A stretch of 64,000 bases of DNA from the IMG/VR virus record IMGVR_UViG_3300020050_016625, positions 32,001 through 96,000 of that record. One strand, 5' to 3'. Positions 4,067-62,234 of this stretch are shown piece after piece. Source of the DNA: a virus. Its lineage: Duplodnaviria > Caudoviricetes. Position numbers and translations under genes: made by a program. The stretch's first letter is position 1, and every line of letters begins with the position of its first letter. The notes beneath the pieces were generated by a model. It was not told the DNA's origin, searched no databases, and saw only the letters and a list, made by a program, of their open reading frames with translations.

Positions 4067-4122
4067 GCAAACATTTTCCTTACAGATAAGTTACTATATA
4101 TAAACTGCTAACAACTATAAAA

Positions 4123-4434
4123 ATGACATATATTCATAATAACCTAAGATACCTATTTGCAGACTATATAAAATATAGTTATACAGGCATAATGAAAAGC
4201 TACGACATGCCTTTTGCCAAAGCAGATGCAAGTGTTTCGATAAGTTTCAAAACTTACCTGCAATACAGATTTAGCAACGAATGGTGCAAAATTTTAGCTA
4301 CTGCGTGGGGTATCAACCAAAGGGAATTGGCTATACAGGCAAAGATGTTTAATGAAATTGCAGGGGTTTTAGATACGGGTATATCGCTTAGTAATGACTT
4401 CTATACAAAAAATCTAATCAATGAAAAAGTTTAA
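4123..4434 (+). CDS. Hypothetical protein
   Basis: ORF downstream of class II promoter at 4070-4093. Confidence 0.55.
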   Translation: MTYIHNNLRYLFADYIKYSYTGIMKSYDMPFAKADASVSISFKTYLQYRFSNEWCKILATAWGINQRELAIQAKMFNEIAGVLDTGISLSNDFYTKNLINEKV

Positions 4435-4648
4435 ATCATTCATAGGAAATCTTCTTTGCAGCTTCGGTTTTCATACATGGGTAATTTGCCGTATGGTAGA
4501 TAACAAGGGTAGATTAACAAACTATCATAGAGATTGTGAGTATTGCAACAAAGAACAAAAATTGCAACGTCCCGAAAAGTATCACCCTGTCAAATACATT
4601 TGGGTAGATGTTGATACGCCTATCAAAAATAATGACCAATTAGACTAA
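4421..4648 (+). CDS. Small Cys/His protein (LLCxFGFHxW...CxxC), DUF1660-like
   Basis: CSFGFHTW and CEYC motifs. Confidence 0.55.
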   Translation: MKKFKSFIGNLLCSFGFHTWVICRMVDNKGRLTNYHRDCEYCNKEQKLQRPEKYHPVKYIWVDVDTPIKNNDQLD

Positions 4649-4902
4649 TGAAAGATAAATCACTAAGGGAGTTGCGCCTTCAAAAATGGAATAAGCAACT
4701 CAAAGAAACGGAAAAGGAAATCCACAAGCAAATGCGAAAAGCAGATAATGGCTTAAAAGATTTGTTAGGATTTAAAGGTTACAAAAAAACGCCTAAAAAC
4801 TTTACGAAAACTCAAAGAAAAGCAATGAAGAAAGTGCATTTTCTCATACAAAAAGAAAGTAGATTAATTGAAAAAATACGCAATATTGACTTAATAAAAT
4901 GA
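4648..4902 (+). CDS. Basic hypothetical protein
   Basis: TAATG coupling to upstream gene. Confidence 0.6.
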   Translation: MKDKSLRELRLQKWNKQLKETEKEIHKQMRKADNGLKDLLGFKGYKKTPKNFTKTQRKAMKKVHFLIQKESRLIEKIRNIDLIK

Positions 4903-5630
4903 AAGAATATAAATTCCCTTTTGGTAATGGCTACTTTATATCAAACGAAATAGAATTTGAGGCTACAAAAAACCTAAAAGGCTATTTTATGGTAGCCAAA
5001 GAACCGTATGATTGTACTAATGGTTATGAATCCAATTTATATAAAATAGGCGAAAAGATAACTTGTGAACAAAATACATTTAAAGGCTTATGTAGTGCTT
5101 TTTTTGACTATTGCCAAAAATATCTACTATCTATTTCGCCTAATGATTTTATAGGATTGTTCTTAAAAGCAGGTACGCACATTACAGATAATGCGTATAA
5201 TGACTATGAATTTGGATTGACACAAGGGATAAGTGGTATAAATTATAGCGAAATGAGATGTGAGTTAAAAGTTGATTTACCACCGTACAACTATGTAAGC
5301 CTATGCTTATTATTCATAGAAAAAGAAGCTATCGAAATAGGTAAATTATCTAATGAGTTAATAGAAGTAGAATATGACGATAATTCAAAAGAGGTATTAA
5401 ATGTAACAGCTATTCAAACACGCAAAGAAGCGATTGAATTATGTAATAAATTCACAAAGGAAGCACTAAAGAAAGATAATGCCTTTGAATATTTGGATAT
5501 ATTCAAGAATAACTTTGATAGCTGTAGGAATTACGAAATAGAAACATATTTAGAAAAAATTACAGGAAATTTAACTTATAGGATAGTTGAAAAGTGTCCT
5601 TTTAATAACTTTTCATGGTTCGATGCTTAA
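4899..5630 (+). CDS. Hypothetical protein
   Basis: 243 aa ORF. Confidence 0.65.
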   Translation: MKEYKFPFGNGYFISNEIEFEATKNLKGYFMVAKEPYDCTNGYESNLYKIGEKITCEQNTFKGLCSAFFDYCQKYLLSISPNDFIGLFLKAGTHITDNAYNDYEFGLTQGISGINYSEMRCELKVDLPPYNYVSLCLLFIEKEAIEIGKLSNELIEVEYDDNSKEVLNVTAIQTRKEAIELCNKFTKEALKKDNAFEYLDIFKNNFDSCRNYEIETYLEKITGNLTYRIVEKCPFNNFSWFDA

Positions 5631-5695
5631 TAATAGCGTGGAGTTTTTGAGATGTATTTTTAAGGCAAAATAAAAAGGGGTATTTTTGAAAACAA

Positions 5696-11234: not shown

Positions 11235-11682
11235 AGCGGAAAATTTGACCATTTTAGGCTATATCACTTATTCACTTGCAAATTATAGTATGTTGAATAA
11301 AAGTGGGATAAATCTTATAAACACAAGTAACGCAAGTGAGTTAGGAAGTCTATTCGATAAGCGTTATTTACGTATCTATTTTGCTAAAATAAACAAGTAT
11401 GCAGAAATGTATATAGAATCAGGCATGCCAAAAGATATGTATTGCGACACTAATGTAAATTTGTGCGCAAAATTAGCACGTAGCACATTATTTCTATTAT
11501 CTAAACATTCTATGCTATCTGAAAAAACAATGAAAATATTGATAAAATTACAAGATTCAAAGGATAGTAATATAATATTTGATTTGCTTACTAAGGACGA
11601 GTATGAAAATATTTTTGCATCACATTTTACGATTGAAATAAGAGAAATTATTGAGGATAGAAAAAATATCGAAAAAAGTTAA
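11224..11682 (+). CDS. Hypothetical protein
   Basis: ORF. Confidence 0.6.
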   Translation: MINKAENLTILGYITYSLANYSMLNKSGINLINTSNASELGSLFDKRYLRIYFAKINKYAEMYIESGMPKDMYCDTNVNLCAKLARSTLFLLSKHSMLSEKTMKILIKLQDSKDSNIIFDLLTKDEYENIFASHFTIEIREIIEDRKNIEKS

Positions 11683-11704
11683 ACCTTTTGAGTTATATTA
11701 CGTT
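11682..11704 (+). promoter_or_regulatory. ECF-type promoter class I (AAC-N16-CGTT)
   Basis: AACcttttgagttatattaCGTT. Confidence 0.6.
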
Positions 11705-12060
11705 AAATATATTATATTCGGGCTGCTAACGGGTTTTAATCCAAACGCTCGCCTTCTTCTATCATAGATTTTTCCACATTATTACCAATAACTATATGCA
11801 ACAAACAAGAGCTGCACCGTAGTATAAAAAAATATCTCTTACAAGACCACGTGTTAAAAGTTGTGGCAACAAATAGAATCAGGCTATTAGCAAGTGCCTT
11901 TAAGTAGTAAAATAAACGCCCACAGAAGCGAAATTTTGTGTAGAAACTAATGTAGATAAATAACTTTACTATTCATATTATATATAAAACGCTACATTTT
12001 ACAAATTGTAGCGTTTTTTTATTTGTAAAATTGTAAACAATTTTCATATTTTTGTGTTAT

Positions 12061-13385: not shown

Positions 13386-13422
13386 AAAAAGCCCGTTAAA
13401 ATTGACTTTAACGGGCTTTTTT
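13386..13422. terminator. Bidirectional intrinsic terminator
   Basis: AAAAAGCCCGTTAAA-attgac-TTTAACGGGCTTTTT. Confidence 0.85.
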
Positions 13423-16400
13423 TATTTAATCCTTTGTTGCGTAAACGCCTGTTGCTGTATTGTATTCAAAACTATGCCATCTATACCTGTATTTTGAATG
13501 ATAACAGTCATTTGGGTATTAATTACGGGTTCACTACCGCTAATGCCACCAAGCCCCATTGGGCTATTATTTGTTGCGCCTACATTCCCACTTGAAAGTG
13601 TTTGGTTTGCATTTGGCGTACTACTCGTACTACTTTTTGGGCTATTATTTGTTGCGCCTACATTCCCACTTGAAAGTGTTTGGTTTGCATTTGGCGTACT
13701 ACTCGTACTACTTTTTGACTTATTACCTACACTACCTAATAGACTACCAGCAAGACCGCTCGCCCCTAATAAAGCCAAACCACCTACTAATAATGGTATC
13801 ATAACGGGCAATGATGCAGGAAAAGTAGCTATGTTTGCAGGAGAAAATGCAGCCTGTACCAATCCCATTCCTATAACCTTTGGTATTTCTACTAAGATAG
13901 TTTTACCTAATGAAATTAACGCCTGTTCTAATACATCTTCAAAAGAAGCAACACCCATAATCATATCGCCTATACCTTTGCTAAACATTTCTGCTGTCTG
14001 CCCTAATCCTTGCCCTAATGATTGAAATGCTTGGTTCTTAATTTCCTTAAATGTTTCAGTCAATGTCTCCGCAGCATCAATAGATTGTATTTTGGTTGCG
14101 CCCATTGCCTCAAAAAATGCAGATAAAGAAGCCGTACTGCTTGTTATTGAATTATTGACTGCATCAAAACTTCCCACAATATCTGTACCTATATTTGGAA
14201 TAGAGGGGATTGTGAAATCTGTATCATTTGAAGGCATAAGACTTTGTGGCGCAATAGTCTTACCTACTACTTGACTACCTATTGTTTCCCCAAAACTTAC
14301 GCCCTCAAAAGATTTTTCAAAAGATTTTATTTGGTTCTCTAAACTACTAACATCTAATTTTAATTTAAGATTAGTTTCAATATCACTGCTTGCTTTTAAT
14401 TCAGATAACTGCTTTTTAAGTTCCGTTAATTTATCTAATTCAGGCTGTGATAGAATTTTAACTATATTACCCTTTGCAACATTTTCAAAAATAGTAACTA
14501 TATCTTTTGCTTTATTTTCAGATTCTTTTAGCGATGTGATATAAATTTGAAGGTTTTTTAAATGTTCAAAATCTGCGCCTGTTTGTGGTGTATCTAATTC
14601 ATTAATCTTTTTTTGAACTTCTGAAATTTCATTACCTAATCCTGTAATAGAATTAAATGCAGGTACATTGCCTAATTCTATGTTAAGTAATTTTATTTGA
14701 TTATTAAGCAATTCTATTTCATAGCGTACATTTGCAGTTTCCGCACTTCCTAATGATTGTTTTTGAAGTTTCTCATTTAATACAGAAAGTTCAAAATTAT
14801 AAGATTCTAAACTTTTAGGATTAAATTCTAAACGCTTAATATTATTTTGAAACTCTTTTATTTGAGCATTTAAGGATACACTTTGCATTACAAGCGAAGG
14901 AATTAAGCCGCTATTTGGTGCTTGCTTATTGATTTGATTATTAATAATCTGTATTTGAAAATTCAAATCATTAATACTACCTTTTACGTTCTCAAATGCC
15001 TTAATCCTATTTTGAAGTGCCTCAATTTCATCTTTAAATTTAACAACCCCTTGCGCTAATTTATCAAAAGTACTACTACTTGCACTGGTTTCACGTAATT
15101 TAGATTCCATTTGCGACAAACGTAGCTGCAAACCTTCTAAACTATTACTATTTGTGGACATTAAAGCAAGCCTATCATTTATAGCCTTTAATTGCTTTTC
15201 AAGTGCAATAGATTCTTTTGCAACTGCCGCAAATGCGCCGCTACCTGCGCCAACTTTATTTAGCCTGTCTTTTGCATCTGTTAAACTTTGTGAAATAGCC
15301 CCTATACTACCTGCTGCAAATTCTGCGGCAGGTGGTATTTTAGTAGCAGCAGTTGTAACAGCATCTCCAACAAAACCCCATGTATCTAATACAGCTTTAC
15401 CCTCCGCAGAAAGTTGCGATAAATCCGTTTCAGTTAATGTAGTTAAGCCTCTTTCAAGTTGTGTATAAGACTCCTCTACTTTTCTATAATTATCATTTAT
15501 TTCTTGCGTTTTTTTCTCAACCTTACCTAAACCCTGTAATACATCTACCCCCATTGTAAGGATAGGAAAATTTGCATACATAGTTGATTTTATCGCAGTG
15601 CTGTAAGGCGATGTATTGTCTTGCGTGCCTGCCTTAGCTTTACTTTTCTCTTTTTCAGAAGCCGTTTCAAGCAAATCAAAACTCTTAACAACAACCTTTA
15701 CACCTGCCGCTAAATTAGAAAAACTTTCTGCAACTCCATTTACCCAATTCTTAAATCCATCTGTTTGTGTTAGTTGTACAATACCATTGATTAAATCGGT
15801 AATAGTAATTACAACTTCTTTTGCTAATGGTAATAACGCTTGACCTAATTGCGCCCCTAAAATCTGAAAACTATCCTGCATTGAAGACCATAAACCTTCA
15901 AATGTATTTGATTGTGTTTTCATCATTTCAAAGAATTTACCACCGCTACTTGTCATATTAATTAAAGCAGCATCTATTTCTTTAAAACCTATTTTACCTG
16001 CACTTGCAAGTTTCTTTATTTCTGCTTCTGGCTTACCTAATACCTTCGCAAGCTCCTCGATAATTGGTACACCTGCATTAATAAATTGAGATAAATCGCC
16101 AGCCATTGCTTTGCCTTGCGCCTTAATTTGCCCATACGCATAAACAATTGAAGGTAATTTTTCCCTACCTACACCTGCCGCAACGTCCCCTATCCTACTT
16201 AAACGATTAGTTACATCGTCAATAGGTATCCCCATTGCAAGTAACTTTGTCCCCTGTTCCGCAACATCATCAAAATTAAAAGGGCTTGTACTTGCAAGCG
16301 TTTGAAACTGTTGAAATAATTTACCACCTGCGGCTGTACTGCCTGTAATTACATCTAAACTTGCACGTAAACTCTCAAATTGCGCTGCACTATTTATTGC

Positions 16401-16940
16401 AAATTTCCCTACATCGAATATTGCTTTTCCGATTTGGGCCGCCCCTGCTACGATTGCGCCACCTGTAACAGCACCTAACAACATGCCTTTAAAGTCTGTT
16501 GCTTCTCTAATTGCACCACCAAAAGCACCTTTTAACTTTTCCGTAAAAGACTCTTTTGAGACTGCACCCATTTCTACCCTTAAATCTTTAAGGCGTTCTC
16601 TTACCTTTATTATATAGGTAGCATCGCCACCCGAAAATTGTTTTTGTAATTTAGTCAATTCTTTTTGTAACTCCCCTACATTTGCAGTCGCTAAACTGAA
16701 TGATTTTGTAGGTATGGGGCTTTCAGGGATTTTAGGCATTTTAATTCCTGAAAATCCCTTATTTAGGTCGCCTACTAACTTATTGATATTTTTAAGCATT
16801 TCTGCCTGATTCCCTAATGACAAATCAGGAATTTTAATAGATGCAAATGCACTATTTGTAGCAGACACTAATTTTGATGTTTGGGCTATCCAAGCATCAA
16901 CCCCTGTCATCTGCACGCTAAATAATATATCTTCTGCCAT
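13422..16940 (-). CDS. Tail tape measure protein
   Basis: 1172 aa; tape-measure domain (AAQFESLRASLDVITGS..SPFNF..GDVAAG..YGQIKAQGK..NAGVPI..LAKVLG) plus coiled coils; follows tail chaperones. Confidence 0.92.
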   Translation of the reverse strand: MAEDILFSVQMTGVDAWIAQTSKLVSATNSAFASIKIPDLSLGNQAEMLKNINKLVGDLNKGFSGIKMPKIPESPIPTKSFSLATANVGELQKELTKLQKQFSGGDATYIIKVRERLKDLRVEMGAVSKESFTEKLKGAFGGAIREATDFKGMLLGAVTGGAIVAGAAQIGKAIFDVGKFAINSAAQFESLRASLDVITGSTAAGGKLFQQFQTLASTSPFNFDDVAEQGTKLLAMGIPIDDVTNRLSRIGDVAAGVGREKLPSIVYAYGQIKAQGKAMAGDLSQFINAGVPIIEELAKVLGKPEAEIKKLASAGKIGFKEIDAALINMTSSGGKFFEMMKTQSNTFEGLWSSMQDSFQILGAQLGQALLPLAKEVVITITDLINGIVQLTQTDGFKNWVNGVAESFSNLAAGVKVVVKSFDLLETASEKEKSKAKAGTQDNTSPYSTAIKSTMYANFPILTMGVDVLQGLGKVEKKTQEINDNYRKVEESYTQLERGLTTLTETDLSQLSAEGKAVLDTWGFVGDAVTTAATKIPPAAEFAAGSIGAISQSLTDAKDRLNKVGAGSGAFAAVAKESIALEKQLKAINDRLALMSTNSNSLEGLQLRLSQMESKLRETSASSSTFDKLAQGVVKFKDEIEALQNRIKAFENVKGSINDLNFQIQIINNQINKQAPNSGLIPSLVMQSVSLNAQIKEFQNNIKRLEFNPKSLESYNFELSVLNEKLQKQSLGSAETANVRYEIELLNNQIKLLNIELGNVPAFNSITGLGNEISEVQKKINELDTPQTGADFEHLKNLQIYITSLKESENKAKDIVTIFENVAKGNIVKILSQPELDKLTELKKQLSELKASSDIETNLKLKLDVSSLENQIKSFEKSFEGVSFGETIGSQVVGKTIAPQSLMPSNDTDFTIPSIPNIGTDIVGSFDAVNNSITSSTASLSAFFEAMGATKIQSIDAAETLTETFKEIKNQAFQSLGQGLGQTAEMFSKGIGDMIMGVASFEDVLEQALISLGKTILVEIPKVIGMGLVQAAFSPANIATFPASLPVMIPLLVGGLALLGASGLAGSLLGSVGNKSKSSTSSTPNANQTLSSGNVGATNNSPKSSTSSTPNANQTLSSGNVGATNNSPMGLGGISGSEPVINTQMTVIIQNTGIDGIVLNTIQQQAFTQQRIK
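13560..13717. repeat. Perfect 2 x 78-bp tandem duplication in the tape measure C-terminus
   Basis: 13560-13639 identical to 13638-13717; encodes KSSTSSTPNANQTLSSGNVGATNNSP twice. Confidence 0.95.
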
Positions 16941-20052: not shown

Positions 20053-20114
20053 GCGCAAAAATATAGTGCTTGCTTGTACATTGTACAACTTACAAGCAAT
20101 AGCTATAATTTTGC
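20053..20114. promoter_or_regulatory. Divergent TAnnTTTG promoter pair (tail operon / BspA-1), late-promoter candidate
   Basis: CAAAAATATAGTGCTT (minus TATTTTTG) and TAATTTTG on plus; same 16-mer at 62152; homologous copy at 21498-21560. Confidence 0.65.
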
Positions 20115-28044: not shown

Positions 28045-28309
28045 GTTAGTTATTTATTCGCAAAGATATGTTACTTTTAGGCTTGTGGTTTCTACTCATT
28101 CAATGTTTTGTAATATTTTTTATAAAAACGAATAAAAACGGCTTATTTTTACTTAAATGCTTAATTATTTAGCACATATTGTGCCATTTTTTTATATATA
28201 TACTTGTAAGTAAAATAGGTAATTAGCCTTTTTATACGCAATATAATTGAAATAGCAAACAATTTATTACAAAATGAGTTATAGCTATATTACTTTTAAT
28301 CATTAATTT

Positions 28310-34759: not shown

Positions 34760-34933
34760 AATAAATTTAGTTATTGATTATATATATTTATACGCATAAA
34801 AGCGAAATAAGTTTTGATTTTAAACATTTTTTTTGATAAATTTGTTTATAGCTTATCGTAACTATCTGCGAAGGCTGATACTACTTACATTTGTGAGCAA
34901 GTCAGCCGTTTTATTCAATAATCAATATATAAA

Positions 34934-40218: not shown

Positions 40219-40244
40219 TTGCGTATAAGTGTAATACAAAGGGC

Positions 40245-40272
40245 GCAACCGAAAACCCAAAATAGAGTAGGT
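40245..40272 (+). promoter_or_regulatory. Conserved 5'-leader RNA motif RCC-GAA...AGUA-GGY
   Basis: Also at 50561-50588 and 51004-51032; each follows a class I promoter. Confidence 0.55.
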
Positions 40273-40295
40273 ATTATTTCAATGTAAAATTTATT

Positions 40296-41089: not shown

Positions 41090-41145
41090 CAAAAAAGGCT
41101 GCAAACAAAATGCAGCCTTTTTTGTTATTCTATAAAACTTATATT

Positions 41146-42962: not shown

Positions 42963-42970
42963 CCACATAT

Positions 42971-44028: not shown

Positions 44029-44099
44029 TTTTCATTTATCACAACCTTTTGCGATTAAATACGTAAAAGGTTGTATAATTATTAATCAAATTTTATTTT

Positions 44100-44792: not shown

Positions 44793-44885
44793 TTTATTTC
44801 TCACTAAGTACAACCTTTTATGCTACTATGCGTAAAAGGTTATATAATTTACAATCCAATACCGCCAAATAACAAACATTTACAC

Positions 44886-45251
44886 ATGCTAAAAGTTATC
44901 AAATGTAAAAACTATGCAAAGATATATGAAAATCTAATTGCCATATTTGAGGCTAATAAAGCGTTAGGCGATAATAAAAAGTTTTTCTTTGCAAACACTA
45001 CCTTATTTGATAAAAGCGAAATTACGCCATTATCGAAGGTTGTCGCTAACATAAATGAGAGATGTATAGAAAACTCAATTTATGTACACCAAGTAGAATG
45101 GGAAGGTAGTAGCAAATTTGTAGATTTTCAAAACAAACTTATTGCTATCCTTGAACCAAACTGCGATGTAATATTACTCACTCTATCAAATTCAAAAAAG
45201 TTTGATGCTTACGTAGAAAACGCCTATTTGTATTTAAACAATCCTACTTAG
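44886..45251 (+). CDS. Hypothetical protein
   Basis: Likely start MLKVIK after class I promoter at 44812-44834. Confidence 0.6.
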   Translation: MLKVIKCKNYAKIYENLIAIFEANKALGDNKKFFFANTTLFDKSEITPLSKVVANINERCIENSIYVHQVEWEGSSKFVDFQNKLIAILEPNCDVILLTLSNSKKFDAYVENAYLYLNNPT

Positions 45252-45319
45252 TAAGTCGTTATAAATACAAATGAAAAAAAATATTTTCACTTTTATTTGG
45301 TGGTTTGATAAATGTTACA

Positions 45320-45428
45320 TACCTTTGTGCATTGTCTCCCCAAAGCAGTAAATAAGGACTAACGCCTTCGGGCTTTTTTCATATAGGTAGTTACAAATCT
45401 TGGGGGAGACTTTGTAACTACTTTTTTT
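45320..45428 (+). promoter_or_regulatory. TACCTTTG promoter plus terminator/antiterminator leader
   Basis: GTCTCCCCAA (45334-43) complementary to TTGGGGGAGAC (45400-10) inside terminator GTAGTTACAAA..TTTGTAACTAC-T7. Confidence 0.65.
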
Positions 45429-46229: not shown

Positions 46230-46445
46230 TTATATACACTATAACACAATATAATATTTTGGCATAAGTGCCATAGAAGTATCAAAAAAATGAGAATGAT
46301 AAGAAAGTGTTTAAATTAAACATTTAGGGATAGCTATGTGTTATTATAAAAAAAACACCAAAGAATGAAACCTTATTTATTCACAGCCGTATAATAGGCA
46401 TGAATAAGAAACAATTTACAGAGCATCTCAATATTTTCCATTTAG

Positions 46446-46571
46446 GATAGTGCAAGGGAAGCAGCACTATCTTTGGGATTAAAGAAATACAGAATATTAG
46501 TAGTATCTAAAACGGAAAATGTAGGGAAATTATTTTGTGGTGGTTTTATATGGAAAAGACTACCAAAGTAA
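46446..46571 (+). pseudogene. NUMOD1-like remnant
   Basis: DSAREAALSLG..I...GGFIWK preceded by an in-frame TAG, no start. Confidence 0.4.
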
Positions 46572-46623
46572 GCGTAAAAAGCCTTAAATCTAAACAATTT
46601 AGGGCTTTTTTGGTTATTTATAT

Positions 46624-49623: not shown

Positions 49624-49648
49624 AAAGAAGGTTTCAATATTGATTTAT

Positions 49649-49674
49649 TGAAACCTTTTTATTTTGAGTGCGTA
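49649..49674 (+). promoter_or_regulatory. ECF-type promoter TGAAAC-N16-CGTA overlapping a terminator arm
   Basis: Matches SigW-type consensus; near-identical copy at 50518-50543. Confidence 0.7.
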
Positions 49675-49698
49675 TAAGCAGGGTAAAATAATAATCGT

Positions 49699-50520
49699 AT
49701 GAATATCAAAAATCAGTTTGATTTGTATAAATTTATCATAGATAACAAAATTTATGCAAACTCTTTATTTTGGCTTTTTAGAAAGCACTTTGAAGGAATT
49801 GCCTTCAAAACGCCAAAGGGTAAAAGTATTTTAATTCAGGATATAAAAAGTGTAAAAGATATGAATATTACCTTTGGCGGTAAATCGTATGGGATTACAC
49901 CATTTATAAGAAAGAGATTCTTTGAAAACGCAAATAAGGATAGTGATTTTATAGCCTATTTGGAGAAAATAAATGCAGCCTTAGATAAATGCGAGAAACC
50001 TATTAATGCTATGAATAGTTATAGTAAGGTTGTTTACTCAAATAAGGATTTAGATATGCAGGTAGAACAATATAGGGCAGTTGCTGAAAATAAATACGCT
50101 GGTAGTTTGTTTGATAGTTATTCAAATCTTACTGATTTTTTGAATAAGCAATACTATACAACTATCATAAATTACATTTTAAAAGAAATAGTTTATGATA
50201 ATGGTGTAAAAATAAAGGATATTAAGAAAAGTGCAACAGTAGGCTATATACATGTTATTTTGGCAGATAAAACCGCTTATACTGTAAGTTTTGTAGATTT
50301 TATAGGTGGTGGTAAGAAATTGAAAGAAATAGAAGATAGTAGTTACTTTGATTTTTATAGGAAAATAAAGAATGATTATGATTTAAGCCTATATTTCGAT
50401 GCAAAAAAGAAAAAAGCTAATGAGATAAATAAGATAAATGAGATAAATATTAAGGCACAAAGAGAACTTGAAATAAATGCAAATGCAGCTTTATATGAAA
50501 TAAGAAAACTGCTTTATTGA
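49699..50520 (+). CDS. Hypothetical protein
   Basis: 273 aa ORF. Confidence 0.65.
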   Translation: MNIKNQFDLYKFIIDNKIYANSLFWLFRKHFEGIAFKTPKGKSILIQDIKSVKDMNITFGGKSYGITPFIRKRFFENANKDSDFIAYLEKINAALDKCEKPINAMNSYSKVVYSNKDLDMQVEQYRAVAENKYAGSLFDSYSNLTDFLNKQYYTTIINYILKEIVYDNGVKIKDIKKSATVGYIHVILADKTAYTVSFVDFIGGGKKLKEIEDSSYFDFYRKIKNDYDLSLYFDAKKKKANEINKINEINIKAQRELEINANAALYEIRKLLY

Positions 50521-50612
50521 AACCTTCTTATTTTGAGTGCGTACAAGTGCAATATAATGGGCAGCCGAAAACGTTTAATAGAGTAGGCGTAATTAATTTT
50601 AGAATTTATCGT

Positions 50613-50894
50613 ATGCAGCCAAAAGATTTTTCAAAAAAAGTACCGCTTAGTAGTGTGTTTCAAAGAGCAGAATGTGAAAATTTAGCGTGTAGAATTTTGC
50701 ATTTTACAGAAACATGGGAAAAACCCCTTACATGGGAAGAGTATTACGAAACAATGACACAAGCAGACAAAAATGTAGCAAGTGCAGTAAAGAGAGACTT
50801 TGAAAGAGTAATGCCTTATTTAGCAAGTGCAGAAAAATGCGCTACATTTTCGCCTGCATGGAGAAAGTTATTTGAAAGTAACCAAGCAGGGTAA
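50613..50894 (+). CDS. Hypothetical protein
   Basis: Likely start MQPKDF downstream of promoter and leader motif. Confidence 0.65.
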   Translation: MQPKDFSKKVPLSSVFQRAECENLACRILHFTETWEKPLTWEEYYETMTQADKNVASAVKRDFERVMPYLASAEKCATFSPAWRKLFESNQAG

Positions 50895-51058
50895 AAACAG
50901 TTTGGATAGTTTAATGTAGATACTGCATGTTTGTGTAGTATCTACTTTTTTTAGCTTAAATTGAAACCTTTGCAGATAGGTTGCGTTTAAGTATGTATAA
51001 GCAGCAGCCGAATAGCTTTTGATATAGTAGGCAATAAGTTTTTTAAGTATTTATTTAT

Positions 51059-51946
51059 ATGCAAATCGTAGAATTAAAAACGAAATTACAAGCTATTTAT
51101 CCGCAAATAAAAGGCTTCCAATATGATTTTCAAGTGAAAGATTTTCTTTCTAATGAATCGTATTTAATACGTGAGTTAGCCTTGAATATGTTTCGTAACA
51201 ATGGAAATGTCTCCTATAAAGAATCGCAATATCCGCTATTTCCAATGGATAGACAGGCAAGTGTAAAGCCCGTTATTAGACAGCTTAGAGGTTATGGAGA
51301 CTTCTGTTTTGCAATAGGCGAAATAGAACACTATGATGCAGGTCAATATAATTATTGGGATAGCGTAGTTTGCCTACCAAGAGAGTTGGCAAAACTTTTT
51401 GTATGGAAATTTAACGATTTTTCAGGAATAGAAATTGAAAACGAAAAAGAAGTTTTTGAGTTTTTGGGAATCAATAGAAAGCCGCTATCTGAAAAAAGAA
51501 ACCGCCCCGAAGTTTACTTAGAAAACATACTAATATCACGTCTCCCCGAACAAGCCATAAATACTATTCCCGAAATAGGGTGGTGGAGTAGCGACTTTTC
51601 GGGCTACGGTAGCTTAATTAGACGACCTTTTGAAGGCGAAATAACAGAAGATGTTATACATGAGTGTATAAGACAAATAGGCTATACTGCAAAAGATGTC
51701 GTAGATTTCAATGAGGCTAAAAATGAGTATATGCAGTACCATTATCAAAAAAAGTTTTTAGAAGAAAGAATCTTACCATTCATGTCAAAATTTTCATATA
51801 CTATTGCAGAAGGGCATTACAAGGGTCGCCCAACAGGAATGAAAAGAGGTGCAGAAAATCAACAAACTATATCTCCAAAAACATTACAAGATTTAACTCT
51901 CTTTGCAGGTTTAGGTGTATTTGTTGTAACTCATAAAAAACAATAA
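51059..51946 (+). CDS. Hypothetical protein
   Basis: 295 aa; class I promoter at 50962-50987. Confidence 0.7.
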   Translation: MQIVELKTKLQAIYPQIKGFQYDFQVKDFLSNESYLIRELALNMFRNNGNVSYKESQYPLFPMDRQASVKPVIRQLRGYGDFCFAIGEIEHYDAGQYNYWDSVVCLPRELAKLFVWKFNDFSGIEIENEKEVFEFLGINRKPLSEKRNRPEVYLENILISRLPEQAINTIPEIGWWSSDFSGYGSLIRRPFEGEITEDVIHECIRQIGYTAKDVVDFNEAKNEYMQYHYQKKFLEERILPFMSKFSYTIAEGHYKGRPTGMKRGAENQQTISPKTLQDLTLFAGLGVFVVTHKKQ

Positions 51947-52036
51947 TTTCGATAGGGTTTTATTGGTTAAAACAAATCTCACAAACAAATTAAACAGTTA
52001 TCAGTTATTCCCATATAACTATTAACTGTTTTTTTT

Positions 52037-52588
52037 ATGAATAAAGTAGAATTTGACTTACAAGCGCATCAACTAAGGATTGATATTCTCACGTATGCAG
52101 AAAAAGCGTATCAGGATATTAACAAGCATATCAATTTAGTAGCAGAAAACCTACGTAGGATTGAAAGAGAGTTTGAATTATTAGGCGTTAGTGCCACAAG
52201 TTGCAGCGTTACCCAAAGCACATCTATTCGAGTATGCAAAGCAGATTGCTTAAACACATGGGAAATTGCGCCAAACTTTGTGATTGTATTAGAATATCGC
52301 TGCATAATCAAACTTGCAATAAGCGACCTGTTCAATGGAATTGATAAGCAGGTAGATATAAACCCTTTTGATAGTTCCGCAGATATTTATTCAAATGTAT
52401 TGTACGATATTTCAAGCCACAAGCCATATATTGAGTGTAAGGTATTAAGCAATGAGTACCTGCATACACTTAGTAGTGCAAAATTACGCCTTTTAAACAT
52501 GCCAAAGTTCACAGATAGTATTTGTAAGGAAATACAGGAATCAAACGAAATACAGGCTATAAAAGACATGTATGTTAATTTAGGATAA
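52037..52588 (+). CDS. Hypothetical protein
   Basis: Class II promoter at 51984-52007. Confidence 0.65.
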   Translation: MNKVEFDLQAHQLRIDILTYAEKAYQDINKHINLVAENLRRIEREFELLGVSATSCSVTQSTSIRVCKADCLNTWEIAPNFVIVLEYRCIIKLAISDLFNGIDKQVDINPFDSSADIYSNVLYDISSHKPYIECKVLSNEYLHTLSSAKLRLLNMPKFTDSICKEIQESNEIQAIKDMYVNLG

Positions 52589-52642
52589 GTAAACAAATCA
52601 ATGAGTTATTGGTTATTCATATATAACTAATAACTGTTTTTT

Positions 52643-54005: not shown

Positions 54006-55351
54006 TGTAGTTCGTAATACCATAGAAAACTATGTCATTACTTTATAGTCAAAACTATTGGGCTAACTACTAAGCCCTCTACACCATTGTTAAAAACGTT
54101 TGATGCTACCTTTTTAAGTATCTGCAAAGAACCATTCAAGTCTGCATTAATAACCTTACCGCTACTACTTTTAAACAACCCCCTTTTTACCCTGCGACCT
54201 TTGTATTTATCCTTTTTAGTAGGACTTTCTTTGTCAAGAAAACTTGTTTTTGAAGTATATGATTCTTCTGTTTTAATGACTGAAATACCTTGTAAGTCGC
54301 ATTTGTATTGCAACATATCAATAGCCTTTGCAAATGGAATTTGCGTAAAATTTTGGTTATTCTTTACACCTATATTTATCCCTTGTTTCCATTCTTTATT
54401 ATATCCTACTATTAAAGTAGTTATATCATTTGAAACTAAGTGGCTAACAACCTTAGATGTGGCTTTATGCAAATAATCGCTAATTTTCCTATTCCTTTTT
54501 GCAGTAAGTTTACTTAATTTTTTACTATTCTTTCTGTTTTCTCCAAATTGTTTATTTAACTTTTCTTGTATATCTGCCTTCTTTTTATTGTAATACTGAT
54601 TCATTGATTTTAAGGGTTTGCCGTTTATGATTATAGGGCTTATTATATTACTACCAATAGTCATAAAGTTGTTTACCCCAAAATCAATAGCACAGTATCT
54701 ATTATTATTTTCTTTCTTTTCTACATTTTCAACTCTATATACAACCTCAATAAAATAGGTCTTATCCTTATTTGGAATAACTCTTATTTCATTTATATTT
54801 TGCTTTTTGGTTATTACACTAATGTTTGTTCCTGATAACTTATTTCCTTTATTTATCGCTTGCTTATTGTAAATCAATATAAACCTACCCTTTTCTTTAT
54901 GTTTGAATTTTGGCTGTTTCGGAAGTCCTTTGAATTTACTTGCATCTTTCTTGTATGCCTTTAACGCTGCAAAATATGCTTTATAGGATTTATCAAGTTT
55001 TATCAATACCTGCTGACTGACTTTTCTTGGTAATGCAGTAAAACATTCATGGTCTTTCATTAGGTTAATCATATCAAAACCACCTAAATACTTATTACCA
55101 TTTTTGTGATTTTCCCTTAGTATATACAAAGCACTATTATATAGATTTTTAGCCTTAAATGCTAAACTATCTATTTCCTTGTAAATTATGTTACTTGGTT
55201 TTATTAAGTGCTTTTCTACTAATTGCATGTTAGCCTTAAACTATTTTAGTTTTTATTCGTTATCTATCATACAAATATACGAAAATTAATTTTCAATACC
55301 AAACTTTTCTGTAAAATTCTATTGAAAATTATTAACTTTACTCATACATGT
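54006..55351 (-). mobile_element. Non-autonomous IS200/IS605-superfamily (IS1341-like) element
   Basis: tnpB only; 12-bp subterminal inverted repeat 55287-98/55320-31; splits a gene; ends approximate. Confidence 0.75.
54038..55228 (-). CDS. tnpB: RNA-guided endonuclease TnpB
   Basis: MQLVEKH..AKNLYNSALY; AIDFGVNN; DYLHKA; EESYTSK; RVKRGLF; INADLNGS. Confidence 0.93.
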   Translation of the reverse strand: MQLVEKHLIKPSNIIYKEIDSLAFKAKNLYNSALYILRENHKNGNKYLGGFDMINLMKDHECFTALPRKVSQQVLIKLDKSYKAYFAALKAYKKDASKFKGLPKQPKFKHKEKGRFILIYNKQAINKGNKLSGTNISVITKKQNINEIRVIPNKDKTYFIEVVYRVENVEKKENNNRYCAIDFGVNNFMTIGSNIISPIIINGKPLKSMNQYYNKKKADIQEKLNKQFGENRKNSKKLSKLTAKRNRKISDYLHKATSKVVSHLVSNDITTLIVGYNKEWKQGINIGVKNNQNFTQIPFAKAIDMLQYKCDLQGISVIKTEESYTSKTSFLDKESPTKKDKYKGRRVKRGLFKSSSGKVINADLNGSLQILKKVASNVFNNGVEGLVVSPIVLTIK

Positions 55352-59255: not shown

Positions 59256-59337
59256 GTTTATCTTAAAATAAGTGATTTAGATTTTTTTAAGTAAGCAGTT
59301 TTTAGGCTGCTTACTCTGATATATTATTGTTCAATTA

Positions 59338-60603: not shown

Positions 60604-60628
60604 TTTATTTTATAATTTTGAATGTTGA

Positions 60629-62119
60629 TTAAAATAAAGGTTTATCGTTTTTGCGTTTGATTAGTGCCGCTTCTTTTTCGGCTTGTACTGCATCTTGCTT
60701 GCTTTTTTCGCTTAATTCAATAAGTAAGCCTTCAATATCAGTACGTAATTCAGACATAGACTTTTGCGCAGCTTCTGTTCTCGCTAAATCCAAATCAAGC
60801 GAGTTTAATCGCTTTAATTGAGACTTAATAGCAACATACTTTTGCACGTAAATGTCTTTTTCAATAGCCATTTCAGATTGCAATGCAGTAAGCGATTTAT
60901 TTGCAGTTACTAAATCGGTTGTACTTTTTTCTAATTGCTTAGTAAGTTCAACTTTTTCAATGCCTAATAACTCATTTTTATCAGTCAATAGAGAAGAAGA
61001 ACGTTCTAAGTTAGACTTATCTAACTTTAAAGCCTCAACTTCCAAACTAACATTTGTGAGTTTTTTGTCCAAAATTTCAAACTTTTGCGCAATTTCAGTA
61101 GTGGCATCAAAAGGGGTTGTATCTGCTAAATTTTTAGCCACCACTTTTACCCATGTTGCAGTATGCAAGTGTGCAGGTAGAGTATTAAAAACAGATTTCA
61201 TTAATGCAATTTCAGTAGCATTTGCATCTGTATTAGCAGGGGTTTTCACTTCTTTTTCGGTTTCTAATGCCTTTTCAGTGGGCTTATTTTCAAGCGTATT
61301 TTCACTTGTAGGTGCAGGTGTATTATCAATTACACGCACTTCGTACATTTTCTTTTTCTCAATTTGCCCACTACCATTTGCACCAATATCTACCAACGAA
61401 ATTTCCATTGTCTCAACTCTTGCATTAGTTCCATACAAGTAATAAGAAACTGGTGTTGTATAGCCTTCTGGAATATAGTTTGAGCGGTCGCTACCAATAT
61501 ATTCAAAACCGCTAATCCATGCAGAAATAGAAACTTTTGAAAGTGTGCCTATGTCAATATGTCTTGTAACAAGTGAGCCATGCCATTGTGCCTGCTTATC
61601 AATATACGCATATACGATAAGTTTACGAACAACCTGCCCGTTTTCATCTAATGCCACAACGTCATTTTCAACCATATCCACAACTTCGTATGAATAGGTT
61701 TTACCTACCATTTCATAACGATTGTGCATAATACACACATTTGTACCACCTGCTTTGTTTTCACCCCAGCCTTTTGAATAACCATCTCCCAAAAGTTGTA
61801 ATACATATTCTGTAAATTTATCCCTATCAGAATCAATTCGAGTATCAGAAGCCGCAAGTTTTAGAAACAAAAGGTTTTCCTTTACCCATGCTACGGATTT
61901 AGCAAGACCCGAAGCAACGAGTGAAATATGTGCATCTGTGGGCGTATATAGTTTTTGAGCAACATCTGCGCCTTCTGAAACCCCTACAATTTCAACACCC
62001 TTCTCTCTATTCTTTTCAAGATAAGCAGTTATAGCCTCCTTTTCTTGTGTAGATAAAGTAGCATTACCCGTATCTAAGACACGACTTGCCCCCTTTTCTT
62101 TTATATGTTCAAAAATCAT
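60629..62119 (-). CDS. Prohead protease-scaffold fusion
   Basis: IDSDRDKF, MHNR, KVSIS, EISLVDIGAN followed by a long coiled coil. Confidence 0.8.
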   Translation of the reverse strand: MIFEHIKEKGASRVLDTGNATLSTQEKEAITAYLEKNREKGVEIVGVSEGADVAQKLYTPTDAHISLVASGLAKSVAWVKENLLFLKLAASDTRIDSDRDKFTEYVLQLLGDGYSKGWGENKAGGTNVCIMHNRYEMVGKTYSYEVVDMVENDVVALDENGQVVRKLIVYAYIDKQAQWHGSLVTRHIDIGTLSKVSISAWISGFEYIGSDRSNYIPEGYTTPVSYYLYGTNARVETMEISLVDIGANGSGQIEKKKMYEVRVIDNTPAPTSENTLENKPTEKALETEKEVKTPANTDANATEIALMKSVFNTLPAHLHTATWVKVVAKNLADTTPFDATTEIAQKFEILDKKLTNVSLEVEALKLDKSNLERSSSLLTDKNELLGIEKVELTKQLEKSTTDLVTANKSLTALQSEMAIEKDIYVQKYVAIKSQLKRLNSLDLDLARTEAAQKSMSELRTDIEGLLIELSEKSKQDAVQAEKEAALIKRKNDKPLF

Positions 62120-62151
62120 ATTATGAGTATATGTTATGTATTAATTTCGCA

Positions 62152-62167
62152 CAAAAATATAGTGCTT
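62152..62167 (-). promoter_or_regulatory. Head operon promoter (AAGCACTATATTTTTG)
   Basis: 16-mer identical to 20056-20071 upstream of the tail operon. Confidence 0.65.
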
Positions 62168-62234
62168 ACATGTATGTTGTATTTTTTGTAAACAAAATAT
62201 ATATTTAGTAGTTATATATGTTTAAATCATAAAT

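What the first reader, a model, noticed from the sequence alone, without database searches (positions are those of the whole stretch)
4070..62214. Window-wide ECF-sigma-type promoter regulon in two classes driving phage accessory genes
Seen: about 30 mostly intergenic sites with fixed spacing, typically 20-70 nt before start codons and oriented with the downstream gene. Class I is AAC-N16(17)-CGTW: plus strand 11682, 12478, 12904, 23999, 24773, 24938, 29311, 40203, 44043, 44812, 46369, 49652, 50521, 50965; minus strand 23390, 23960, 32887, 34813. Class II is AAACA-N15(16)-DGTTA: plus strand 4070, 9404, 12036, 25066, 28258, 32894, 36330, 41104, 46593, 51984, 52592, 62191; minus strand 24761. 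Known: TGAAAC-N16-CGTA is the B. subtilis SigW-type ECF consensus, and AAC..GTT resembles actinobacterial SigH/SigR-type ECF promoters. Structural and lysis operons here instead use Bacteroidota housekeeping TAnnTTTG. Inference: the phage runs its accessory genes off one or two ECF sigmas (its own or hijacked host stress sigmas) and its virion genes off the primary sigma.
Basis: partly seen in the sequence, partly recalled or inferred. Interest (0 to 1): 0.8.

Follow-up and report, generated by a model that had tools for sequence, protein, structure and literature searches.

The report
Phage promoters of ECF-sigma type
This uncultured 135-kb Bacteroidota phage puts two families of real alternative-sigma (ECF-type) promoters in front of its small accessory genes; one family is the promoter type its hosts keep in front of their own main sigma gene and that many other wild phages use, and the other is private to this phage lineage.

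Summary
Class I (tGAAACCTTTT-N11-gCGTATAAGt, i.e. AAC-N16-CGT) has 13 strong sites in the window and 24 in the 135-kb phage record. Class II (tgyAAACAAwwT...ttTTnGTTAT, i.e. AAC-N16-nGTTA) has about 15 in the window and about 30 in the genome. None of 26 class I hits and 1 of 30 class II hits lie deep inside a gene, although 57% of positions do. Both classes point at a start codon about 41-94 nt away.

New findings:
- The phage encodes one ECF sigma (162 aa), just outside the window, behind a class I site.
- Class I recurs many times in at least 17 other IMG/VR phage contigs, including jumbo phages that carry SigW-like ECF sigmas.
- Class I also sits upstream of host rpoD in Flavobacteriales and Bacteroidales, where Flavobacterium psychrophilum has a mapped start site.
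- Class II is lineage-private.
- Tail, lysis and head-region operons use the host TAnnTTTG box.

Which sigma reads which class is inferred only. I favour a cascade: class I, then the phage sigma, then class II. The scan noted class I before only on the neighbouring window of this same genome, not on other DNA.

The parts
11682..11704 (+). Class I promoter (AAC-N16-CGT), followed by a structured-looking leader and no nearby ORF
   Evidence: 17.2 bits
12478..12500 (+). Class I promoter; ATG 55 nt from AAC (100-aa ORF)
   Evidence: 30.9 bits
12904..12926 (+). Class I promoter; ATG at +53 (138 aa)
   Evidence: 23.4 bits
23999..24022 (+). Class I promoter with a 17-nt spacer; ATG at +48 (134 aa)
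   Evidence: 22.8 bits
29311..29333 (+). Class I promoter ahead of a small ORF and the 204-aa protein with a DNA pol beta thumb-like domain
   Evidence: 29.6 bits; Pfam
34791..34813 (-). Class I promoter; ATG at +54 (287 aa)
   Evidence: 26.1 bits
40203..40225 (+). Class I promoter driving a DUF805b RNA leader and a 110-aa ORF
   Evidence: 23.1 bits; Rfam
44043..44065 (+). Class I promoter of the EAD11-domain gene; its -35 and post -10 regions form the inverted repeat AACCTTTT/AAAAGGTT
   Evidence: 27.2 bits; Pfam EAD11
44812..44834 (+). Class I promoter with the same inverted-repeat form
   Evidence: 27.9 bits
46369..46391 (+). Class I promoter, 255 nt before the 999-aa methylase/helicase gene; no ATG-ORF of at least 35 aa starts 38-104 nt downstream
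   Evidence: 20.8 bits
49652..49674 (+). Class I promoter; ATG at +47 (273 aa)
   Evidence: 31.0 bits
50521..50543 (+). Class I promoter driving a DUF805b-like leader
   Evidence: 29.0 bits; Rfam E=2.6e-4
50965..50987 (+). Class I promoter driving a DUF805b-like leader and a 295-aa ORF
   Evidence: 31.1 bits; Rfam E=0.029
4069..4093 (+). Class II promoter (AAACA-N15-DGTTA)
   Evidence: 15.3 bits
9403..9427 (+). Class II promoter
   Evidence: 18.7 bits
9955..9979 (+).
   Evidence: 24.6 bits
12035..12059 (+). Class II promoter
   Evidence: 25.2 bits
24738..24762 (-). Class II promoter
   Evidence: 23.1 bits
25065..25090 (+). Class II promoter (N16 form)
   Evidence: 20.2 bits
28257..28281 (+). 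Class II promoter
   Evidence: 21.9 bits
32893..32917 (+). Class II promoter, divergent from the hybrid site at 32887(-)
   Evidence: 27.1 bits
36329..36354 (+). Class II promoter whose AAACAA lies in the loop of a terminator hairpin
   Evidence: 23.9 bits; hairpin -17.9 kcal/mol, z -9.7
41103..41127 (+). Class II promoter inside a terminator hairpin; heads the operon that contains p203
   Evidence: 27.1 bits; hairpin z -8.5
46592..46616 (+). Class II promoter/hairpin directly before the 999-aa N6-methylase/SNF2 helicase gene
   Evidence: 26.3 bits; hairpin; Pfam
51983..52007 (+). Class II promoter with an inverted repeat over the -10 region
   Evidence: 22.9 bits
52591..52615 (+). Class II promoter with an inverted repeat over the -10; the repeat is kept by a two-sided change in relative L188
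   Evidence: 25.2 bits; comparison with L188
62190..62214 (+). Class II promoter
   Evidence: 23.8 bits
23367..23391 (-).
   Evidence: Class I below 10 bits, class II 15.7 bits
42041..42652 (+). p203: alpha/beta N-terminal domain plus a sigma region 4-like helix-turn-helix; candidate transcription regulator, encoded in a class II operon
   Evidence: Pfam Sigma70_r4_2 26.8 bits; AF2 model, mean pLDDT 60; weak NarL-type response regulator matches
40239..40273 (+). DUF805b RNA motif beginning about 5 nt after the predicted class I start site
   Evidence: Rfam 38.9 bits, above the gathering score
20056..20063 (-). Host sigma-A type -7 box (TATTTTTG) of the tail operon, preceded by the palindrome TTGTACAATGTACAA
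   Evidence: Sequence read
62152..62159 (-). Host sigma-A type -7 box of the 496/421/473-aa operon
28061..28068 (-). Host sigma-A type -7 box of the operon that ends in the amidase/endolysin gene

Best explanation
Both motif sets are real promoters built like ECF-sigma promoters: an AAC at -35, then 16 nt, then (C/n)GT at -10. Each sits in front of a separately transcribed gene or short operon, mostly of unknown function.

Class I (tGAAACCTTTT-N11-gCGTATAAGt, then TATAA at the predicted start) is a promoter type already used by the hosts. It matches the sigma-ECF motif 'SM6' of Flavobacterium psychrophilum. It also matches the conserved promoter in front of rpoD in Flavobacteriales and Bacteroidales. 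Many other uncultured phages, jumbo phages among them, use it heavily and carry SigW-like ECF sigmas of their own.

Class II (tgyAAACAAwwT-N6/7-ttTTnGTTAT-N5-TATAA) has the same geometry but different -35 and -10 words, and was seen repeatedly only in this phage lineage.

The phage encodes one ECF sigma (162 aa, G000 103923-104411 minus strand, about 7.9 kb beyond the window end). Its operon lies behind a terminator and a class I promoter.

The wiring I think most likely:
1. Class I fires first, read by an ECF holoenzyme present at infection. This is either the host SM6-type sigma or a SigW-like phage sigma in the missing ~12% of the genome.
2. That produces the 162-aa sigma, which reads class II.
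3. A class II operon encodes p203 (receiver-like domain plus HTH). p203 is a candidate regulator of the palindrome-flanked sigma-A type late promoters of the tail, lysis and head-region operons.

Shown here: the motifs are real, correctly placed and oriented; the sigma gene exists; class I occurs in other phages and in hosts; class II is private. Inferred: who reads what, and the timing.
For: That the motifs are real and correctly placed:
- Excess over shuffles and over Markov random sequence.
- 0 of 26 and 1 of 30 sites in CDS cores, which are 57% of positions.
- A start codon follows at a fixed distance in the sense direction, p about 1e-7.
- In the 92%-identical relative L188, the spacers of a class I and a class II site have diverged while the -35 and -10 words are kept.
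- Three DUF805b RNA motifs begin 2-5 nt after the start predicted from the host data.

The sigma gene:
- Pfam Sigma70_r4_2 43 bits; TIGR02937 sigma70-ECF 53.5 bits against a cut-off of 42.9.
- It and p203 are the only sigma-like ORFs in the 135 kb held.
- A class I site at G000 104673(-), preceded by a terminator, lies upstream of it.

Class I is shared:
- The exact 16-base pattern gives multiple hits in at least 17 other IMG/VR contigs. These include 17 hits in a 363-kb contig and 10 in an 88-kb contig.
- All five large contigs tested (G001, G004, G072, G074, G075) encode ECF sigmas; for the two scanned against NCBIfam the best or near-best hit is SigW.
- Of seven ECF-like sigma ORFs in those contigs, three have a clear sigma-A -7 box 35-49 nt before the ATG. 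One has a -7 box 188 nt upstream plus a proximal class I-like site, and three have none.
- The motif lies 53-73 nt before rpoD in every sampled genome whose RpoD is at least 86% identical to the Flavobacterium query (7 of 7), and in three Bacteroidales/Lentimicrobiaceae genomes.
- F. psychrophilum Table S2 maps a start site 31 nt before rpoD behind tgtAAC-N17-CGTATAAC. It defines SM6 as GTAAC-N16-CGTATAAC with the start 10 nt after the T of CGT (PMC9723704).

Class II is private:
- 3.9 matches per 100 kb in the other phage loci against 26 per 100 kb here.
- Only single hits per contig in IMG/VR.
- The sigma has only four close homologues (73-94% identity) and none in IMG/VR. p203 has only a handful.

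For the cascade:
- Each regulator gene lies in a unit of the preceding class, insulated by terminators.
- The sigma's region 2 departs from the W-L..IA.N...D..R signature kept by the other phage sigmas, while its region 4 is ordinary. That fits a changed -10 word.
Against: - No transcript data exist for this phage, and its host is unknown.
- Class I here lacks the GT before AAC (1 of 26 sites) that 69% of sites in other phages and all rpoD sites carry. A host SM6-type sigma may therefore read it poorly.
- Every other large phage contig with class I brings its own ECF sigma, so by analogy the 162-aa sigma could be the class I reader.
- ECF sigma genes in bacteria usually sit behind their own promoter.
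- Hybrid sites exist: G000 30975 pairs AACCTTTTT with AGTTAT, and several sites pair AAACAA with CGTTAT.
- The record is 88% complete, so a second sigma may be missing.
- The p203 model is of low confidence (mean pLDDT 60) and its fold matches are not significant.
Confidence: 0.5

Rival explanations
1. The 162-aa phage sigma reads class I and so amplifies its own synthesis. A basal host ECF holoenzyme that recognises the same promoter type starts the loop. Class II is read by something else, such as p203 with a partner, a host factor, or a sigma in the missing part of the genome.
For: - A class I site lies in front of the sigma operon, as is typical for ECF sigmas.
- All five other large class I-rich phage contigs encode an ECF sigma.
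- This phage's class I differs from the host and jumbo-phage consensus just 5' of AAC: AA/GA/AC rather than GT. That is expected if a different, diverged sigma reads it.
- It is the only complete sigma in the 135 kb held.
Against: - A strong terminator and no sigma-A box lie upstream of the sigma operon, so the loop has no entry point unless the host reads class I anyway.
- Class II, about 30 sites, is left without a reader.
- In three of the seven ECF-like sigma ORFs in the other phages the gene sits behind a clear sigma-A box, not a class I site.
- The -10 word of class I is the same as in phages whose sigma has a quite different region 2.
Confidence: 0.3
2. A single ECF holoenzyme reads both classes, and class II is merely a weaker or differently tuned variant of class I.
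For: Both classes share the AAC-N16-nGT geometry and a TATAA at the predicted start. Hybrid sites exist.
Against: - The two -35 words (AACCTTTT and AAACAAwwT) go almost always with their own -10 words (CGTAtAAG and nGTTAT).
- Other phages rich in class I have no class II.
Confidence: 0.08
3. Class II is not a promoter. It is a mixture of intrinsic terminators and a dyad-symmetric operator (AACAAA...TTTGTT) bound by a phage DNA-binding protein such as p203.
For: - Nine of 28 sites fold into strong hairpins followed by a T run.
- Many sites are near-palindromes, and perfect ATAAACAAA...TTTGTTTAT dyads occur at G000 10559 and 124749.
- p203 has a helix-turn-helix.
Against: - About 19 of 28 sites have no hairpin.
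- The sites are asymmetric: the reverse reading scores about 10 bits lower.
- They point at the downstream gene, with the ATG 43-61 nt away in 19 of 30.
- A TATAA follows on one side only.
- The geometry equals that of class I.
- AAACAA in the loops of nine terminators cannot be explained by termination alone.
Confidence: 0.1
4. The motifs are chance products of an AT-rich genome.
For: The loose class I pattern alone is only 1.5-fold over shuffles.
Against: - The tight patterns are about 6-fold over shuffles.
- Sites are absent from CDS cores and have fixed orientation and distance.
- Class I recurs in other phages and upstream of host rpoD.
Confidence: 0.01

Closest known systems
Sigma-ECF motif SM6 and the rpoD-proximal start site of Flavobacterium psychrophilum (Guerin et al. 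2021, PMC9723704, Table S2)
   Same: The -35 AAC, the 16- or 17-nt spacer and the -10 CGTATAA are the same. A/T-rich initiation occurs about 10 nt after the T of CGT. The start sites were mapped experimentally in a Bacteroidota host.
   Different: The host sites read GTAAC; this phage reads GAAAC or nAAAC (GT in 1 of 26 sites). The host genomes scanned hold only 1-3 strict copies, whereas this phage holds 24. The rpoD start was left unclassified by the authors' algorithm.
Bacillus subtilis SigW-type promoters
   Same: The consensus is nearly identical, T-tract after AAC and CGTATA included. Bacillus and Paenibacillus genomes turned up in the pattern scan. The other phages' sigmas hit the SigW models of NCBIfam best or near-best.
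   Different: The phylum differs. The 162-aa sigma of this phage scores best against the Bacteroidetes ECF subfamily TIGR02985 and SigY, not SigW.
Phage sigma cascades (SPO1 gp28 then gp33/34; phiEco32 gp36, an ECF-like sigma; T4 gp55; from my own knowledge)
   Same: A phage-encoded sigma redirects host core polymerase to phage-specific promoters. The sigma gene is transcribed from the preceding promoter class.
   Different: Here virion and lysis genes appear to stay on the host primary sigma, while the alternative-sigma promoters serve small accessory genes. One class copies a host promoter type. No experiments exist.
Uncultured jumbo phage contigs, e.g. IMGVR_UViG_3300029288_000055 (363 kb) and 3300031578_000005
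   Same: Dozens of tGTAACCTTTTT-N11/12-aCGTATAAGa sites precede small genes, and these contigs carry their own ECF sigma.
   Different: Their sigmas are SigW-like, 180-240 aa, and some sit behind a sigma-A -7 box. No class II motif is present. The proteins are only about 29% identical to the 162-aa sigma, over region 4.

Membership tests
ECF (group 4 sigma-70) dependent promoters | Two-part motif: AAC at -35 and CGT at -10, separated by 16-17 nt | tested here: met
   Class I: 22 of 25 seed sites have N16 and 3 have N17. Class II keeps AAC and the spacing, but its -10 is nGTTA, with C only in the hybrid sites.
ECF (group 4 sigma-70) dependent promoters | Located upstream of genes and oriented with them, not inside coding sequence | tested here: met
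ECF (group 4 sigma-70) dependent promoters | Transcription starts about 10 nt downstream of the -10 word | not testable with these tools
   There are no RNA data for this phage. Indirectly, three DUF805b RNA motifs start 2-5 nt after the predicted +1, and the host start sites were mapped.
ECF (group 4 sigma-70) dependent promoters | Activity depends on a cognate ECF sigma | not testable with these tools
   A candidate sigma is present, but dependence needs in vitro transcription or genetics.
ECF sigma factor family (the 162-aa protein) | Sigma regions 2 and 4 only, about 160-200 aa | tested here: met
   TIGR02937 53.5 bits (cut-off 42.9) and Sigma70_r4_2 43 bits (cut-off 25.7). Sigma70_r2 scores 21.4 bits, just under its cut-off of 24.
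ECF sigma factor family (the 162-aa protein) | A co-transcribed anti-sigma factor | tested here: inconclusive
   Only a 38-aa membrane-like ORF lies upstream in the operon. The next gene downstream is separated by a terminator and a class II site. No homology test of an anti-sigma was made.
F. psychrophilum SM6 / Bacteroidota rpoD-upstream promoter | GTAAC -35 word | tested here: not met
   GT precedes AAC in 1 of 26 class I hits here. It does so in 212 of 309 sites in other phage loci and in all rpoD sites.
F. psychrophilum SM6 / Bacteroidota rpoD-upstream promoter | CGTATAA -10 word with a 16-17 nt spacer | tested here: met
Bacteroidota primary-sigma promoters (-33 TTTG, -7 TAnnTTTG) | A TAnnTTTG box about 5 nt before the start | tested here: not met
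   Class I and class II lack it. It is found instead before the tail, lysis, head-region, TnpB and other operons.
Intrinsic terminators (class II subset) | GC-containing hairpin followed by a T run | tested here: inconclusive
   Met by about 9 of 28 class II sites (z from -5 to -10) and not by the other 19. The subset looks like overlapping terminator-promoter units.
NarL/LuxR-type response regulators (p203) | Receiver fold plus a C-terminal helix-turn-helix | tested here: inconclusive
   The AF2 model shows alternating strands and helices followed by an HTH, but mean pLDDT is 60. The best Foldseek rows are DesR, VraR, VpsT and RcsB at E 0.003-0.05, TM about 0.2.

The most novel reading that the evidence does not exclude
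The phage launches its accessory genes by borrowing the conserved host ECF sigma, the one that drives the promoter in front of host rpoD across Flavobacteriales and Bacteroidales. From one of those borrowed promoters it makes a diverged ECF sigma of its own. That sigma has evolved a new -10 specificity (GTTAT instead of CGTA) and opens a private second promoter class. The virion genes stay on the primary sigma under a phage activator.
Probability: 0.3. Interest if true: 0.7.

Novelty: new member of a known kind. Interest (0 to 1): 0.55.

Why it matters
- It gives a readable transcription map for a phage whose proteins are almost all unannotatable: three promoter classes mark the transcription units.
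- One ECF-type promoter word is shared by hosts, in front of rpoD, and by many uncultured Bacteroidota phages, jumbo phages included. That word can be used to annotate such phages and to guess their hosts.
- The phage sigmas and their promoters are candidate orthogonal expression parts for Bacteroidota, where standard genetic tools work poorly.
- The conserved ECF-type promoter before rpoD is itself a little-noticed feature of host regulation.

Tried and rejected
- Naming the phage: megablast of 12 kb against 50,697 phage records found nothing.
- Function of the driven genes: PHROGs and Pfam on about 50 window proteins were nearly blank. Hits were a tape measure protein, an amidase, BspA-type LRR proteins, HNH, EAD11, an N6-methylase/SNF2 fusion, TnpB and a pol beta thumb. 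'Accessory versus structural' can therefore be checked for only a few operons.
- Relatives of the 162-aa sigma: none in IMG/VR, by single sequence or by alignment. That includes a 69.7-kb contig apparently carrying both the sigma and p203 homologues.
- p203 as a second sigma: rejected, weakly. It has no region 2, its N-terminal half is modelled as alpha/beta, and its best fold matches are response regulators.
- Class II as a variant of the primary-sigma -7 box or of the SM5 box: rejected, because the sites without hairpins lack TTTG or TTGY in register.
- A host regulon behind class I: strict scans of five Bacteroidota genomes gave only 1-3 sites each, essentially the rpoD site. No host ECF sigma gene with this site upstream was found in them.
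- A scan with the wrong spacer (GTAAC-N16-CGTATA) in three genomes gave almost nothing, because their rpoD sites use N17.
- Looking for a published sigma-to-DNA recognition code to assign the classes gave nothing usable.
- k-mer enrichment alone was uninformative.

Full report
WHAT THE WINDOW IS. The window is bases 32001-96000 of a 134,863-bp linear IMG/VR virus record that CheckV rates 88% complete. GC is about 31%. It has no tRNAs and no near match among 50,697 deposited phage genomes. Most proteins have no Pfam or PHROG match. The recognisable ones are:
- a tape measure protein (13422-16940, minus strand);
- an amidase/endolysin (26824-27465, minus strand);
- three BspA-type LRR proteins;
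- an HNH endonuclease;
- an EAD11-domain protein;
- a 999-aa N6-methylase/SNF2 helicase fusion;
- a TnpB;
- a protein with a pol beta thumb-like domain.

I tested it on the whole record. The tighter AACYTT-N13/14-CGTW is 22 against 3.5+-2.1. The class II pattern is 35 against 7.0+-2.2.

Aligning the sites gives two consensus sequences:
- class I: tGAAACCTTTT-N11-gCGTATAAGt-N2/3-TATAA;
- class II: tgyAAACAAwwT-N6/7-ttTTnGTTAT-N5-TATAA.

Counted from AAC, both have the same geometry: AAC, 16 nt, then (C/n)GT.

Weight-matrix scans find 24 true class I sites plus two antisense echoes of palindromic sites. They find about 30 class II sites, against 1-3 in random sequence. These matrices were trained on the sites, so the shuffle tests of the plain patterns are the cleaner statistic.

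None of 26 class I hits and 1 of 30 class II hits lie in the core of a coding sequence, although such cores make up 57% of positions. An ATG-ORF follows in the sense direction 41-94 nt from the AAC in 19 of 26 class I sites. For class II it follows at 43-102 nt in 21 of 30 sites. The figure for random positions is 24%.

Site by site, 26 of the 31 listed sites stand as listed:
- Sites 24773 and 24938 are two copies of a different 18-nt element.
- Sites 23390(-), 23960(-) and 32887(-) have a class II-type -35 with a CGTT -10.
- A class II site at 9955 was missed.

A THIRD CLASS, THE HOST PRIMARY-SIGMA PROMOTER, SERVES THE VIRION GENES. An unbiased Gibbs sampler on 118 upstream regions first found the Bacteroidota -7 box TAnnTTTG, in about 29 regions. 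In the window it precedes:
- the lysis operon (28061-28068, minus);
- the 496/421/473-aa operon (62152-62159, minus);
- the 613-aa gene;
- TnpB and others;
- the tail operon (20056-20063, minus), when the sequence is read directly.

The tail operon and the 496-aa operon share AAGCACTATATTTTTG preceded by a short palindrome.

THE PHAGE HAS ITS OWN ECF SIGMA, OUTSIDE THE WINDOW. A 162-aa ORF at G000 103923-104411 (minus strand) scores as follows:
- Sigma70_r4_2: 43 bits;
- Sigma70_r2: 21 bits, just under its cut-off;
- the sigma70-ECF superfamily model TIGR02937: 53.5 bits, against a cut-off of 42.9.

Upstream of it lie a hairpin terminator, then a class I site (30.6 bits), then a 38-aa membrane-like ORF. 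No TAnnTTTG box is present.

The only other sigma-like ORF in the 135 kb is p203 (window 42041-42652). It has a region 4-like helix-turn-helix only. Its N-terminal half is modelled as alternating strands and helices, with mean pLDDT 60. Its best, non-significant, fold matches are NarL-type response regulators. p203 lies in an operon headed by the class II site at 41103.

CLASS I IS NOT PRIVATE TO THIS PHAGE. Exact scans of IMG/VR with AACCTTTT-N12-CGTATAAG and with the N11 form returned 60 and more than 114 stretches. At least 17 contigs have two or more hits. Examples are 17 hits in a 363-kb contig, 10 in an 88-kb contig and 7 in a 21-kb fragment. The sites there read tGTAACCTTTTT...aCGTATAAGa and precede small genes, as here.

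All five large contigs tested encode ECF sigmas of 180-240 aa. The two scanned against NCBIfam hit the SigW models best or near-best. Of seven ECF-like sigma ORFs in these contigs, three have a clear TAnnTTTG box 35-49 nt before the ATG. One has a distal box plus a class I-like site, and three have none. These proteins are only about 29% identical to the 162-aa sigma, and only over region 4.

THE SAME WORD IS A HOST PROMOTER. Six Bacteroidota hits lay 53-64 nt upstream of the same 287-aa gene. That gene is the primary sigma rpoD.

In a phylum-wide sample, all 7 genomes whose RpoD is at least 86% identical to the Flavobacterium query carry tGTAAC(C/T)TTTT-N11/12-CGTATAA 60-73 nt before rpoD. 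More distant classes mostly do not. Strict scans of five host genomes find only 1-3 sites each.

The published start-site map of Flavobacterium psychrophilum (PMC9723704, Table S2) records:
- a start site 31 nt before rpoD, behind tgtAAC-N17-CGTATAAC;
- a sigma-ECF motif class, SM6, that reads GTAAC-N16-CGTATAAC, with the start 10 nt after the T of CGT.

Applied to this window, that rule puts +1 on the conserved TATAA. The three DUF805b RNA motifs (40239, 50555, 50998) then begin 2-5 nt into the predicted transcripts. This is independent, if indirect, support for the promoter reading.

CLASS II IS PRIVATE. The class II pattern occurs at 3.9 per 100 kb in 568 kb of other class I-bearing phage loci, against 26 per 100 kb here. 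A 16-base class II pattern that hits this genome four times gave only single hits per contig in IMG/VR.

About nine class II sites have AAACAAwwT as the loop of a strong hairpin followed by a T run. They look like overlapping terminator-promoter units that insulate class II genes from upstream transcription. The rest have no hairpin.

The sites are partly dyad-symmetric, but several features argue for a promoter rather than an operator:
- they score about 10 bits better in the sense direction;
- they keep a fixed distance to the ATG;
- the TATAA follows on one side only.

A CLOSE RELATIVE. L188, from a 25-kb ENA contig, is about 92% identical. It lacks roughly 10 kb of window genes (HNH, EAD11, methylase/helicase). 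The class I site matching 50965 and the class II site matching 52591 keep their -35 and -10 words there while the spacers differ. That is what selection on promoter elements predicts.

WHO READS WHAT (INFERENCE). Two assignments fit.

(a) A cascade. Class I is read by an ECF holoenzyme present at infection, which is either the host SM6-type sigma or a SigW-like phage sigma in the missing 12%. The 162-aa sigma made from a class I unit then reads class II. p203, made from a class II unit, may act on the palindrome-flanked late promoters. In favour:
- A lineage-private sigma with an odd region 2 pairs with a lineage-private motif that has an odd -10.
- Each regulator sits in the preceding class's unit behind a terminator.
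- No promoter class is left without a reader.
- The rpoD start site in F. psychrophilum shows similar downstream expression (log2 about 11.4-13.2) in the samples shown in Table S2.

(b) Autoregulation. The 162-aa sigma reads class I. In favour:
- This is the usual ECF arrangement.
- Every other class I-rich large phage contig brings its own sigma.
- This phage's class I lacks the GT of GTAAC (1 of 26 sites, against 69% elsewhere), which suggests a different reader.

I put (a) at about 0.45-0.5 and (b) at about 0.3. One sigma reading both classes gets about 0.08, and class II not being a promoter about 0.1. That class I is an ECF-type promoter I hold at about 0.9. For class II being a promoter my figure is about 0.7.

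COMPARISON AND NOVELTY. Phage-encoded sigmas with cognate promoters are a known kind (SPO1, T4, phiEco32; my own knowledge). ECF-type promoters are known in Flavobacterium (PMC9723704). Five full-text searches found no report of ECF-type promoters or ECF sigmas in Flavobacterium, Cellulophaga or other Bacteroidota phages, nor of these motif words. The library is limited, so this is not proof of novelty. I file the finding as a new member of a known kind. It has three less expected sides: the promoter word is shared with host rpoD, it is widely used among uncultured jumbo phages, and there is a second, private class.

LIMITS.
- There are no expression data and the host is unknown.
- Gene starts come from a simple longest-ORF call.
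- The weight matrices are partly circular.
The most informative relatives could therefore not be read.

Noticed in passing
window 40239-40273, 50555-50589, 50998-51033 (+): Three copies of the Rfam DUF805b RNA motif (38.9, 29.5 and 23.5 bits). Each begins 2-5 nt after the start predicted for a class I promoter. A fourth look-alike follows the class I site at G000 118949(-).
   Followed up: partly
window 11705-11770 (+); L028 around 800, L061 around 530, L006 around 3910: Another conserved-looking leader (gggyGC..TAATCCAa.c...CCTT) follows class I promoters in this phage and in unrelated phage contigs. It has no Rfam match at E<0.5.
   Followed up: no
window 24783-24800 and 24948-24965 (+): An 18-nt direct repeat, ACCTACACAGCCGTATGT, occurs twice 165 bp apart. 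A related CTACACAGC lies next to the -7 box at 9362(-).
   Followed up: partly
window 44043-44072 and 44812-44841: In two class I promoters the -35 word and the region after the -10 form a 30-bp inverted repeat (AACCTTTT-N14-AAAAGGTT). This may be an operator or a cruciform.
   Followed up: no
window 12518, 12944, 32932 (+); G000 115286(-), 126365(-): A near-identical translation-start leader, TAATCAA(A)TTT(T)ATT(A/G)TG, is shared by genes of both promoter classes.
   Followed up: partly
window 20056-20090 (-) and 62152-62185 (-): Late-type promoters share AAGCACTATATTTTTG preceded by a short palindrome (TTGTACAATGTACAA; ACATACATGT). They have no clear -33 TTTG, which suggests dependence on an activator.
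   Followed up: partly
L126, L137 (JBAZIW010000001.1) and IMGVR_UViG_3300029288_000055: The 362,763-bp jumbo phage contig rich in class I sites appears in GenBank, with the same length, as a scaffold of a 'Candidatus Paceibacterota' MAG. It is probably a phage binned as a CPR bacterium. Its TAnnTTTG boxes point to a Bacteroidota host.
   Followed up: partly
L188 against G000 74470-84519 (window about 42470-52519): In the 92%-identical relative, about 10 kb holding HNH, EAD11, the methylase/helicase and neighbouring genes is absent or replaced. The flanks and the promoter modules are kept, so self-promoted accessory genes seem to be swapped as units.
   Followed up: partly
window 51995-52035 and 52603-52640 (+): An AT-rich inverted repeat (GTTATnnGTTAT-N6-ATAACnnATAAC) plus a T run overlaps the class II -10. 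It is kept in L188 by a change on both arms.
   Followed up: partly
G000 104420-104536 (-), outside the window: A 38-aa hydrophobic ORF lies between the class I promoter and the ECF sigma gene. It could be a small membrane partner or regulator of the sigma.
   Followed up: no
window 54038-55228 (-): A TnpB (OrfB_IS605 plus Cas12f-like TNB domain) gene with its own TAnnTTTG box sits inside the phage genome.
   Followed up: no
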